Assembly (NCBI GenBank): GCA_014913405.1
Contig: GCA_014913405.1_3931.1
DNA length: 64,000 nt
Reading direction: 5' to 3' (one strand)
Source: a phage
Part shown: positions 23,896 to 24,039 of the stretch, in pieces
Numbering within the stretch: position 1 is the first letter of the stretch
Layout of the letters: every line of letters starts with the position of its first letter
Notes under the pieces: model-generated
Database searches by the model: none
Told to the model about the DNA's origin: nothing
What the model saw: the letters and a program-made list of their open reading frames with translations, nothing else
Made by a program: the position numbers and the translations under genes

Positions 23896-24039
23896 AATTA
23901 TCTTTGTAGATAAGTTATTAAGCTTACCTGTGAGTATGCGACCACAAAGGGTGAATGGGTAAATTCTAGATTTAAACCCAAAAAGGCACATCGCTACAGA
24001 CCTTAAGCAAGTCTGGGTAGCTTATCTACAAAGATAATT
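23896..24039 (+). repeat. Perfect 19-bp inverted repeat (AATTATCTTTGTAGATAAG) enclosing about 105 nt
   Basis: Arms at 23896-23914 and 24021-24039. Confidence 0.8.

What the first reader, a model, noticed from the sequence alone, without database searches (positions are those of the whole stretch)
23896..24039. Perfect 19-bp inverted repeat enclosing a structured 105-nt segment just upstream of tRNA-Lys
AATTATCTTTGTAGATAAG at 23896-23914 and its exact reverse complement at 24021-24039 flank a segment with internal hairpins (for example CAGACC-TTAAGCAA-GTCTG). A perfect stem of this length is unlikely by chance in 64 kb. It could be another stable RNA, a processing signal, or the inverted ends of a small insertion.
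Basis: seen in the sequence. Interest (0 to 1): 0.5.

Follow-up and report, generated by a model that had tools for sequence, protein, structure and literature searches.

The report
Conserved structured RNA in phage tRNA operon
The perfect inverted repeat is the closing stem of a previously undescribed, evolutionarily conserved ~145-nt folded RNA gene in Felix O1-like phages, lying beside Y-RNA-like genes and downstream of a Ro60-like anti-defence protein gene, and it is not an insertion or a chance repeat.

Summary
The 19-nt arms are exact, extend to a 24-bp helix (P1), and form the best spaced inverted repeat in the 64-kb window. The window is a Felixounavirus.

The element (23896-24039, + strand) is a conserved non-coding RNA.
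- It recurs at the same place, 0-11 nt before tRNA-Lys(UUU) in 9 of 11 lineages.
- P1 is 20-24 bp in all but L090, although the stem sequences are unrelated. Each 5' strand forms 17-20 of 20 pairs with its own partner (one register artefact) and 9 of 20 with swapped partners. Ten of 13 pairs covary.
- An inner hairpin keeps a C-Y-U-W-W-GCAA loop over ten different stems.
- G·U pairs place the fold on the tRNA strand.

Rejected readings: insertion, minus-strand ORF (annotated bas63_0138 in phage Bas63), terminator.

Context:
- 1.2 kb upstream lies a DUF2828/vWA protein whose model matches Ro60 structures. It is the homolog of Bas63 gp130, a reported anti-defence factor.
- Four "CAGCAA" modules lie between the tRNAs. 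One is a YrlA-type tRNA mimic ending 1 nt before the element.
- The same module flanks DUF2828 genes in 48 of 75 distant phages.

The element lacks that module's grammar and matches no Rfam family. Best reading: a stable RNA processed with the tRNAs. A role with the Ro60-like particle is inferred, not shown.

The parts
23896..23919 (+).
   Evidence: Exact 19-nt inverted repeat; 24-bp helix in the minimum-free-energy fold; 10 of 13 basal pairs covary across 10 lineages, with 0 of 500 shuffles as high.
24016..24039 (+). P1, 3' strand of the closing helix
   Evidence: Same calls. In the swap-partner control, own partners form 17-20 of 20 pairs and other lineages' partners form 9.0 on average.
23920..23926 (+). 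J1/2 junction; GCUUA (23922-23926) is a candidate pseudoknot partner of the P4 loop
   Evidence: The best or tied-best complement of the P4 loop lies at this position in 8 of 12 sequences. There is a compensatory switch between UAAGC/GCUUA and UUAGC/GCUAA. This feature is inferred.
23924..23954 (+). P2 hairpin region with the conserved loop motif GAGUAUGCG (consensus about GRGUAKGC across lineages)
   Evidence: Predicted. The motif can be read in the win, L007, CRP22, L090, L092 and L094 sequences. The stem changes from UGUG/CACA (win) to GGGG/CCCC (L007). The exact pairing is uncertain.
23956..23980 (+). P3 hairpin with the loop GAUUCUAGAUU, conserved within Felixounavirus and Mooglevirus
   Evidence: More distant lineages have a hairpin with a UAACGUU loop at the equivalent place. 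The exact pairing is uncertain.
23985..23995 (+). Small predicted 3-bp hairpin (low confidence)
   Evidence: Seen only in the minimum-free-energy fold.
23997..24015 (+). P4 hairpin: CAGAC, loop CUUAAGCAA, GUCUG, abutting the 3' strand of P1
   Evidence: All 5 pairs form in each of 10 lineages, with 10 different stem sequences. The loop consensus C-Y-U-W-W-G-C-A-A is kept in 9 of 10.
24040..24043 (+). 4-nt spacer (UAAU) between P1 and tRNA-Lys(UUU); RNase P cleavage at 24043/24044 would define the 3' end of the element
   Evidence: tRNA-Lys lies at 24044-24119. The spacer is 0-11 nt in 9 of 11 lineages. That processing occurs here is inferred.

Best explanation
The inverted repeat is the 24-bp closing helix (P1) of a ~144-nt non-coding RNA gene on the + strand. 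The RNA has a multi-branched core: P2, P3, and a P4 hairpin whose conserved loop probably pairs with the junction just after P1.

It lies inside the phage's tRNA operon. It starts 1 nt after a YrlA-type tRNA-mimic Y-like RNA (M4), ends 4 nt before tRNA-Lys(UUU), and is 1.2 kb downstream of a Ro60-like (DUF2828 + vWA) gene.

Shown here: the structure is real and under selection as RNA, and the locus context is a Ro60-like / Y-like RNA / tRNA operon.

Inferred mechanism:
- It is co-transcribed with the tRNAs.
- Its 3' end is set by RNase P cutting the abutting tRNA-Lys, followed by trimming back to P1.
- P1 acts as a clamp that blocks exonucleases, and RNase III may also cut within it.
- The compact core presents conserved loops (GRGUAKGC, GAUUCUAGAUU, UUAAGCAA) to a partner.

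The most likely partner is the phage's Ro60-like ribonucleoprotein system, so the element would be an accessory RNA alongside the CAGCAA-type Y-like modules.

Sub-claim confidences: conserved structured RNA, about 0.95. Released as a discrete stable RNA, about 0.6. Functions with the Ro60-like protein, about 0.35-0.4.
For: Structure and selection:
- P1 is 20-24 bp in 10 of 11 lineages (L090 is longer, with internal loops), spanning 50-100% identity of the neighbouring protein, and the stem sequences are unrelated.
- Across 10 lineages 87% of cells pair, against 41-51% when the partner is slid. Ten of 13 pairs show double changes, and 0 of 500 shuffles reach that. In the 7-sequence set 98% pair, against 29-44%.
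- In the swap-partner control, own partners form 17-20 of 20 pairs and swapped partners 9.0.
- P4 is fully paired in 10 lineages with 10 different stems and a conserved loop.
- G.U pairs outnumber A.C 19 to 3, and the covariance model scores 147 bits on the + strand against 31 on the - strand. The tRNA strand is therefore the folded one.

Context:
- ORF 21304-22719 matches DUF2828 + DUF7788 and PHROG 'RNA-binding protein'.
- Its AlphaFold model (pLDDT 87.5) has Ro60/TROVE structures as its top 11 PDB hits, with TM up to 0.67.
- It is homologous to mycobacteriophage 'Ro-like RNA binding proteins'.
- It is the homolog of Bas63 gp130, which counters the ppl defence system.
- M4 folds into the YrlA layout.
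- The CAGCAA module is concentrated within 500 nt of DUF2828 genes in 75 distant loci: 26 and 30 hits on the gene strand, against 1 and 0 on the opposite strand. It also occurs three times after the Ro-like gene of mycobacteriophage Chaser.
- Terminal stems of about 21 bp occur in this RNA class (L080).
- Phage Ro60 proteins with adjacent Y-like RNAs are documented (PMC4201824, PMC12135203).
Against: - There are no expression or end-mapping data for this RNA. Literature searches found none.
- The element does not carry the CAGCAA grammar that marks the DUF2828-linked modules. Its P1 base is AAUUAUC, and no CAGCAA follows the 5' strand. Only the P4 loop (AAGCAA) resembles the motif.
- The canonical Y-RNA motif (GNCGAAN0-1G, or CGAA) is absent from the window's copy, which reads GCGACC. 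It is present only in some homologs (Sf18, L092, L094).
- Long-stem RNAs are not enriched near DUF2828 genes in distant phages (0.03 per kb near, 0.05 per kb elsewhere). The covariance model finds nothing outside the Felix O1-like clade. The link to Ro60 therefore rests on adjacency within one clade.
- Bas63 gp130 counters ppl when expressed alone in T7 infections, so at least that activity does not need this RNA.
- A perfect 24-bp duplex may be cut by host RNase III, which would argue for a processing role.
Confidence: 0.55

Rival explanations
1. It is a pure processing signal. The ~22-bp duplex is an RNase III site, comparable to the stems that flank rRNAs. It separates the upstream Y-like RNA cluster from tRNA-Lys in the polycistronic precursor, and the enclosed RNA is a by-product.
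For: P1 length is held at about two helical turns (20-24 bp) in 10 of 11 lineages. In the window it is an uninterrupted duplex. It lies exactly between two RNAs that must be released, M4 ending at 23894 and tRNA-Lys starting at 24044. RNase III's preference for duplexes of about 20 bp or more is established knowledge.
Against: The interior is not free to drift. P4 is maintained by covariation with a conserved 9-nt loop. The GRGUAKGC and GAUUCUAGAUU loops persist. A loop-junction pairing covaries. Most other tRNA junctions in the same array do without such a stem.
Confidence: 0.2
2. It is a bona fide Y RNA, a direct ligand of the Ro60-like protein, and a non-tRNA-like (YrlB-like) sibling of M4. 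The P4 hairpin or P1 would serve as the protein-binding site.
For: It meets the general Y-RNA description. A long stem is formed by its 5' and 3' ends, it has a large multi-loop interior, and it is encoded next to a Ro60-like gene. The P4 loop UUAAGCAA resembles the UUACAGCAA motif of the DUF2828-linked modules. CGAA-type motifs occur in the P2 region of Sf18, L092 and L094.
Against: It lacks the family grammar derived here, A[AG...CU]G plus CAGCAA at the base of the terminal stem. The CGAA motif is absent from the window's copy. At 144 nt it exceeds the 80-130 nt quoted for characterized Y RNAs. The AGCAA loop may instead be used for an intramolecular pseudoknot.
Confidence: 0.3
3. It is specific to tRNA-Lys(UUU). 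It would be either a leader that controls maturation or levels of the abutting tRNA, or an RNA decoy against host nucleases that target tRNA-Lys. In either case it would act independently of Ro60.
For: It abuts tRNA-Lys(UUU), with a 0-11 nt spacer, in 9 of 11 lineages. It precedes tRNA-Lys(CUU)/tRNA-Lys(UUU) in a tenth. The P4 stem-loop (CAGAC-CUUAAGCAA-GUCUG) superficially resembles the tRNA-Lys anticodon arm CAGA-CUUUUAA-UCUG. From my own knowledge, tRNA-Lys(UUU) is the target of PrrC and PARIS-type defences, and phage tRNAs counter such systems.
Against: The P4 stem changes in L007 while the tRNA-Lys there is unchanged, so the resemblance is not maintained. Gene order throughout the array is conserved anyway, so adjacency may simply reflect synteny. 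In L091 another module sits between the element and the tRNA.
Confidence: 0.12
4. It is a small mobile insertion (MITE-like) with terminal inverted repeats, or it encodes the short minus-strand protein annotated in some genomes.
For: The arms are a perfect 19 bp. Some records annotate hypothetical proteins here, including bas63_0138 and the 85-aa ORF 23734-23991.
Against: There is one copy in the window and none in 5,426 E. coli genomes. Every lineage that carries it has it at the same site, and its arms evolve by compensatory substitutions. No flanking direct repeat was seen. The minus-strand open frame is broken in S.Kent, CRP22, Sf18 and L007.
Confidence: 0.02

Closest known systems
Bacterial and phage Y RNAs (YrlA/YrlB of Salmonella and Mycobacterium; mycobacteriophage YrlA; Yrl1/Yrl2 of Thermus phage phiLo)
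   Same: It is encoded beside a Ro60-type gene. Its 5' and 3' ends pair into a long terminal stem that encloses a large structured interior. It lies directly next to a YrlA-type tRNA mimic. Terminal stems of about 21 bp occur in the same DUF2828-linked class (L080).
   Different: It has no tRNA-like T or D arms. The GNCGAAN0-1G/CGAA motif is absent from the window's copy. It lacks the CAGCAA grammar found in the DUF2828-linked modules. It is larger (144-162 nt) than the 80-130 nt quoted for Y RNAs. Protein binding is untested.
Phage T4 'species 1' and 'species 2' stable RNAs (rnaC, rnaD) in the T4 tRNA cluster (recalled from my own knowledge; not tested here)
   Same: They are small stable RNAs of unknown function encoded among phage tRNA genes, co-transcribed with them and matured by the tRNA-processing machinery.
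   Different: T4 itself has no Ro60-like gene. Any relationship would be one of analogy only.
Large ornate phage-associated RNAs found near tRNA genes (GOLLD, ROOL; recalled from my own knowledge)
   Same: They are conserved, intricately folded non-coding RNAs of unknown function that tend to sit next to tRNA genes in phage genomes.
   Different: They are 4-6 times larger. Rfam, which I recall includes both families, gave no match here even at E = 10.
RNase III processing stems that flank rRNAs and phage early transcripts
   Same: A duplex of about 22 bp formed by sequences flanking a structured RNA within a polycistronic stable-RNA precursor.
   Different: Here the enclosed RNA is only about 100 nt and is itself conserved. 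Cleavage has not been shown.

Membership tests
Y RNA (general definition) | Encoded adjacent to a Ro60/TROVE-type gene | tested here: met
   The Ro60-like ORF 21304-22719 lies 1.2 kb upstream on the same strand. Foldseek's top 11 PDB hits are all Ro60. DUF2828 + DUF7788.
Y RNA (general definition) | Long stem formed by pairing of the 5' and 3' ends, enclosing a large internal loop or stem-loops | tested here: met
   24-bp P1 with a multi-branched interior, conserved in 11 lineages. Definition taken.
Y RNA (general definition) | Ro60-binding sequence motif (GNCGAAN0-1G in YrlA/YrlB; CGAA in phiLo Yrl RNAs) | tested here: not met
   The window's copy reads GCGACC at the candidate place. Sf18 has GCCGAAG and L092/L094 have GCACGAAG, so the motif is present only in some homologs.
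Y RNA (general definition) | Physical binding to the Ro60 protein | not testable with these tools
   Needs a gel-shift, RIP or CLIP experiment with the phage protein.
YrlA (tRNA-mimic Y RNA) | T arm, D arm and a loop-closed acceptor-like stem in the order V-T-AS-D | tested here: not met
   The element has no T loop or D loop. The neighbouring module M4 (23763-23894) does meet this feature.
DUF2828-linked 'CAGCAA' Y-like module (family defined here) | Terminal helix of the form A[AG...CU]G with U-N-CAGCAA directly 3' of the 5' strand | tested here: not met
   The P1 base is AAUUAUC/GAUAAUU and the sequence after the 5' strand is AAGCUUA. Only the inner P4 loop (UUAAGCAA) resembles the motif. 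M1-M4 meet this feature.
Any curated RNA family (Rfam 15) | Covariance-model match | tested here: not met
   No hit on the element at E up to 10. Caveat: a mycobacteriophage YrlA-type locus used as a positive control is also missed by Rfam, so absence says little about Y RNAs.
Miniature transposable element with terminal inverted repeats | Multiple copies, target-site duplication, and presence/absence polymorphism with clean empty sites | tested here: not met
   Single copy. None in E. coli genomes. Same position in every lineage that carries it, with arms that covary.
Intrinsic transcription terminator | G+C-rich hairpin followed by a U tract | tested here: not met
   The stem is A+T-rich, encloses 96 nt, and is followed by UAAU and then a tRNA. 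The terminator scan reports no site here.
T4 species 1 / species 2 RNAs | Sequence or structure similarity to rnaC or rnaD | not tested
   BLAST of the element against the phage collection matched only Felix O1-like phages. No structural comparison was made.

The most novel reading that the evidence does not exclude
Felix O1-like phages would assemble a multi-RNA particle around their Ro60-like anti-defence protein. The CAGCAA-type Y-like modules, including a tRNA mimic, would act as protein-binding RNAs. This long-stem RNA would be a new, clade-specific component with its own fold (a pseudoknotted three-hairpin core on a 24-bp stem). Its role would be to recruit or occlude a host factor such as PNPase, RNase III or a tRNA-directed defence nuclease. 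That would make it a new class of phage regulatory RNA rather than a Y RNA variant.
Probability: 0.2. Interest if true: 0.8.

Novelty: new variant of a known kind. Interest (0 to 1): 0.6.

Why it matters
Felix O1 is a classical Salmonella typing phage, and its relatives (Bas63, wV8 and many therapy candidates) are widely used. This RNA is nevertheless unannotated, or mis-annotated as tiny hypothetical proteins, in hundreds of genomes.

Recognising it, together with the adjacent Y-like modules, recasts the "tRNA array" as a mixed operon of tRNAs, tRNA mimics and structured RNAs downstream of a Ro60-like protein. That protein has recently been reported to counter a bacterial defence system.

The analysis supplies concrete RNA candidates for a speculation made in the Bas63 study. 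It also yields a simple sequence-structure signature (A[AG..CU]G stem plus CAGCAA) that links an RNA family to DUF2828 proteins across very diverse phages. This makes the biology of phage Ro60 particles directly testable.

Tried and rejected
- **Rfam.** Scans of 22000-29000 at E <= 1 and of 23610-24050 at E <= 10 gave nothing on the element. A positive control on mycobacteriophage Chaser showed that Rfam also misses a YrlA-type RNA, so this negative result carries little weight.
- **MAFFT plus RNAalifold on all 10 lineages.** Only the base of P1 was placed in register. I replaced this with structure-anchored analyses.
- **First motif scan.** A permissive search for 'NAGCAA plus stem' was too noisy in the distant loci (413 plus-strand hits, 229 minus, 308 in shuffles) and was discarded. 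The strict version gave the clear positional signal.
- **Covariance model R1.** It found the element only in the Felix O1-like clade. It did not recover L008, L092 or L094 at the correct sites, and it gave false hits on a tRNA-Ser.
- **Long-stem scan near DUF2828 genes in distant phages.** There was no enrichment.
- **Literature.** I found no transcriptome or small-RNA data for Felix O1-like phages. No supplements were held for the Bas63 or Chen et al. papers, and the Y RNA review was not held.
- **Hammerhead-like reading of CUGUGAG.** Considered and dropped, because there is no Rfam ribozyme hit.
- **6S-like, terminator, transposon-end and coding readings.** Considered and rejected; see the rival explanations.

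Full report
**1. The observation**

The sequence AATTATCTTTGTAGATAAG is at 23896-23914 and its exact reverse complement is at 24021-24039. Allowing 3 mismatches, the pattern occurs nowhere else in the window. Shuffled sequence gives 0.08 matches on average and never 2.

The repeat extends to 22 nt at 95% complementarity. With G.U pairs it becomes a 24-bp helix, 23896-23919 with 24016-24039. It is the most perfect spaced inverted repeat in the 64-kb window.

The region folds at -49.2 kcal/mol, with z = -4.96 against dinucleotide shuffles. tRNA-Lys(UUU) starts 4 nt downstream, at 24044.

**2. Where we are**

The window comes from a Felixounavirus, a Felix O1-like myovirus. A 701-nt query around the element matches 264 phage records, mostly at 90-99% identity.

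The element lies inside a 26-gene tRNA array at 22884-28095, all on the + strand. Sigma-70-like promoter matches lie at 22738 and 22828, and a terminator-like site lies at 28258.

**3. It is a conserved RNA structure, not an insertion**

The element is nearly invariant in about 190 Felixounavirus genomes. More informative are the variant forms at the same position.
- A second Felixounavirus type, in CRP22 and BPSELC-1.
- Mooglevirus, in Sf18 and KMM4.
- Seven further lineages found through the neighbouring protein at 50-63% identity: L007, Yersinia phage P778, and L089 to L092 and L094.

All of them fold into the same architecture. P1 is 20-24 bp, with at most symmetric 1x1 or 2x2 interruptions, in 10 of the 11 lineages. 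L090 is the exception, with a longer stem broken by internal loops. There are two or three internal hairpins, and a final hairpin (P4) abuts the 3' strand of P1.

The P1 sequences are unrelated between lineages, sharing only 2-10 of 20 positions. Each 5' strand nevertheless forms 17-20 of 20 pairs with its own 3' strand. The exception is L089, where a bulge shifts my ungapped register, although its own fold still shows 20 pairs. With other lineages' 3' strands the mean is 9.0 of 20.

| Test | Paired cells | Paired when partner is slid | Pairs with double changes | Shuffles reaching this |
|---|---|---|---|---|
| P1 base, 10 lineages | 87% | 41-51% | 10 of 13 | 0 of 500 |
| P1 + P4, 7 alignable sequences | 98% | 29-44% | 10 of 29 | 0 of 500 |

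P4 is fully paired in 10 lineages with 10 different stem sequences. Its 9-nt loop keeps the consensus C-Y-U-W-W-G-C-A-A in 9 of those 10.

G.U pairs outnumber A.C 19 to 3 in P1. The covariance model scores 147 bits on the + strand and 31 on the - strand. The folded molecule is therefore the transcript of the tRNA strand.

The loop of P4 has its best or tied-best complement at the same place in 8 of 12 sequences, nt 22-32, just after the 5' strand of P1. The pairing switches in a compensatory way between UAAGC/GCUUA and UUAGC/GCUAA. This suggests a loop-junction pseudoknot. I treat it as inferred, because L092 and L094 deviate and a 5-bp match is not rare by chance.

**4. Rivals removed**

- *Insertion with terminal inverted repeats.* The element is single-copy and absent from 5,426 E. 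coli genomes. Every lineage that carries it has it at the same site, and its arms covary.
- *Protein-coding.* The 85-aa minus-strand ORF at 23734-23991 is broken in S.Kent, CRP22, Sf18 and L007. In Bas63 the element is annotated as a 36-aa hypothetical protein, bas63_0138, which I consider spurious.
- *Terminator.* The stem is A+T-rich, it encloses 96 nt, there is no U tract, and a tRNA follows 4 nt later.

**5. The context: a Ro60-like gene and Y-like RNAs**

*The protein.* The 471-aa ORF at 21304-22719 ends 165 nt before the first tRNA.
- It matches Pfam DUF2828 + DUF7788 and PHROG 850 'RNA-binding protein'.
- Its AlphaFold model (pLDDT 87.5, pTM 0.86) has full-length Ro60/TROVE structures as its top 11 PDB hits. 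These include Xenopus Ro60 (TM 0.67), Deinococcus Rsr and the Ro60 of Thermus phage phiLo.
- By tblastn it is homologous (E about 1e-60 to 1e-76) to the 'Ro-like RNA binding proteins' of mycobacteriophages.
- It is the homolog of bas63_0130. A preprint reports that gp130 resembles Ro60 and counters the 'ppl' defence system, even when expressed alone in T7 infections. The same preprint speculates that some Bas63 'tRNA genes' might be Y RNAs (PMC11482910).

*The modules.* Four spacers of the array carry the same module, A[AGACCnn]-U-U/A-A-CAGCAA ... [nnGGUCU]G. They are M1 23053-23125, M2 23220-23283, M3 23676-23749 and M4 23763-23894.

M4 encloses a tRNA-like domain:

| Part of M4 | Coordinates |
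|---|---|
| V hairpin | 23798-23814 |
| T arm (UUCGAUU loop) | 23819-23835 |
| 7-bp acceptor-like stem closed by a loop | 23836-23853 |
| D arm (with GG) | 23855-23871 |

The acceptor-like stem covaries between Felixounavirus and Mooglevirus, from GUCGAGU/ACUCGGC to GGCGUGU/ACACGUU. This is the layout described for YrlA RNAs, which are circularly permuted tRNA mimics (PMC4201824 and bioRxiv 10.1101/312249).

*The same module elsewhere.*
- It occurs three times directly after the Ro-like gene of mycobacteriophage Chaser, and the middle copy carries the tRNA-like domain.
- In 75 distant DUF2828 loci from IMG/VR (about 40% protein identity), a strict scan for the grammar gives 26 hits in the 500 nt upstream of the gene and 30 in the 500 nt downstream, all on the gene strand. 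That is 0.7-0.8 per kb, against 0.03-0.18 per kb elsewhere and 1 and 0 hits on the opposite strand.
- 48 of the 75 loci have at least one module within 1 kb, with the same flanks A|AG...CU|G.

M1-M4 therefore belong to an RNA family genetically linked to DUF2828-type Ro60-like proteins. Rfam has no model that detects even the mycobacteriophage YrlA-type RNA.

**6. How the finding's element relates to this**

It starts 1 nt after M4. In L007, which lacks M4, it starts 7 nt after an M3-like module. It shares the general Y-RNA description: a long 5'-3' stem, a structured interior, and a neighbouring Ro60-type gene. A 21-bp terminal stem also occurs on a YrlA-type RNA in the distant locus L080.

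It fails the specific tests.
- It has no T or D arms.
- It lacks the CAGCAA grammar at the base of P1.
- The GNCGAAN0-1G/CGAA motif is absent from the window's copy, although Sf18, L092 and L094 have it in the P2 region.

Only the P4 loop (UUAAGCAA) resembles the module motif (UUACAGCAA), and that loop may be used for an internal pseudoknot instead. Long-stem RNAs are not enriched beside DUF2828 genes in distant phages, and the covariance model finds the element only in the Felix O1-like clade. L092 has a second long-stem RNA (6803-6992, z = -5.3) with the same GAGUAGGC motif directly after its Ro60-like gene. This hints at a small clade-specific family of such RNAs.

**7. Most likely mechanism**

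*Shown:* a selected RNA structure on the tRNA strand, located in a Ro60-like / Y-like RNA / tRNA operon.

*Inferred:* The RNA is co-transcribed with the tRNAs. RNase P cleavage of the abutting tRNA-Lys, followed by trimming, sets its 3' end at P1, and processing of M4 frees its 5' end. P1 protects the RNA and may also be an RNase III site. The conserved loops of the compact core bind a partner, most plausibly the Ro60-like particle. Thermus phage phiLo's Ro60 binds two adjacent Y-like RNAs and host PNPase (PMC12135203).

My estimates: about 0.95 that it is a functional structured RNA, about 0.6 that it accumulates as a discrete stable RNA, and about 0.35-0.4 that it works with the Ro60-like protein. 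The main rivals are a pure RNase III processing stem (about 0.2) and a tRNA-Lys-specific leader or decoy (about 0.12).

**8. Novelty**

No Rfam family, annotation or paper in the held library describes this RNA. The only related statement is the Bas63 preprint's speculation about Y RNAs among the tRNA genes.

It resembles known kinds: Y RNAs and, from my own knowledge, the T4 species 1 and 2 stable RNAs and the tRNA-adjacent ornate phage RNAs. It does not meet the defining features of Y RNAs that I could test, so I class it as a new variant of a known kind.

The by-product of this work, the CAGCAA-module signature linked to DUF2828 proteins across diverse phages, may be of wider interest than the element itself and deserves its own follow-up.

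**9. Limits**

There are no expression data. The distant-lineage comparisons rest on boundaries anchored by my own folding. The pairings of P2 and P3 and the pseudoknot are predictions. Covariance-model E-values are rough. The Ro60 link for this particular RNA rests on adjacency within one clade.

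Noticed in passing
window 21304-22719 (+): A 471-aa DUF2828 + DUF7788 protein directly upstream of the tRNA array. Its AlphaFold model matches Ro60/TROVE structures over its full length (TM up to 0.67). It is the homolog of Bas63 gp130 (reported to counter the ppl defence system) and of mycobacteriophage 'Ro-like RNA binding proteins'.
   Followed up: yes
window 23053-23125, 23220-23283, 23676-23749, 23763-23894 (+): Four copies of a spacer module, A[AGACCnn]-UUACAGCAA...[nnGGUCU]G, whose stems covary between copies. The fourth (M4) encloses a circularly permuted tRNA-like domain (V, T arm, loop-closed 7-bp acceptor, D arm), which is the YrlA layout. None is annotated. 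Bas63 annotates M4 as the hypothetical protein bas63_0137.
   Followed up: yes
L014-L088 (75 IMG/VR loci) and L095 2930-3200 (mycobacteriophage Chaser): The same 'stem + CAGCAA' module is concentrated within 500 nt on either side of DUF2828 genes in very diverse phages. There are 56 gene-strand hits against 1 on the opposite strand, and 48 of 75 loci have one within 1 kb. It also occurs three times in tandem after Chaser's Ro-like gene. This looks like a general RNA partner signature for DUF2828-type Ro60-like proteins. It differs from the published GNCGAAN0-1G motif.
   Followed up: partly
window 24742-24822 (+): A tRNA-like cloverleaf not called by ARAGORN; Rfam tRNA-Sec scores 23 bits, below threshold. 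It has a 9-bp acceptor stem (UGGGACGAU-type), a T arm, and an anticodon-like arm with a 9-nt loop CCUCCAAAA. It may be a degenerate tRNA or another tRNA mimic.
   Followed up: partly
window 25091-25116 / 25156-25181: A second, imperfect inverted repeat (26 nt, 81% complementary, 39 nt apart) in the tRNA array, just before tRNA-Leu(UAG). It contains a 15-bp uninterrupted stem.
   Followed up: no
L092 6803-6992: A second long-stem RNA of about 190 nt (z = -5.3) directly after that phage's Ro60-like gene. Its interior carries the same GAGUAGGC motif as the P2 region of the finding's family, so it is a possible paralog.
   Followed up: partly
L080 258-397; L020 5060-5158: L080 holds a textbook YrlA-type RNA (AACAGCAA motif, T arm, closed acceptor, D arm) on a 21-bp terminal stem near a distant DUF2828 gene. 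L020 holds a complete tRNA whose acceptor stem is extended by about 13 further base pairs.
   Followed up: no
L008 (Yersinia phage P778) 8970-9660: The gap before tRNA-Lys contains several T-arm-bearing tRNA-like elements not called by ARAGORN. One, at about 9010-9145, has a proper acceptor stem (GCGGGUG/CACCUGC) and an insertion of about 60 nt.
   Followed up: no
window 24293-24321 (+): A near-consensus sigma-70 promoter match (TTGACA, 17 nt, TATAGT; 11 of 12) inside the tRNA array after tRNA-Ile. It suggests internal transcription starts within the array.
   Followed up: no
window 23620-23675 (+): A conserved G+C-rich hairpin (GAGAGGGCUAUUUAGCCCCUCCC) followed by a second hairpin directly after tRNA-Asp. 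Both are invariant from Felixounavirus to Mooglevirus. Function unknown.
   Followed up: no
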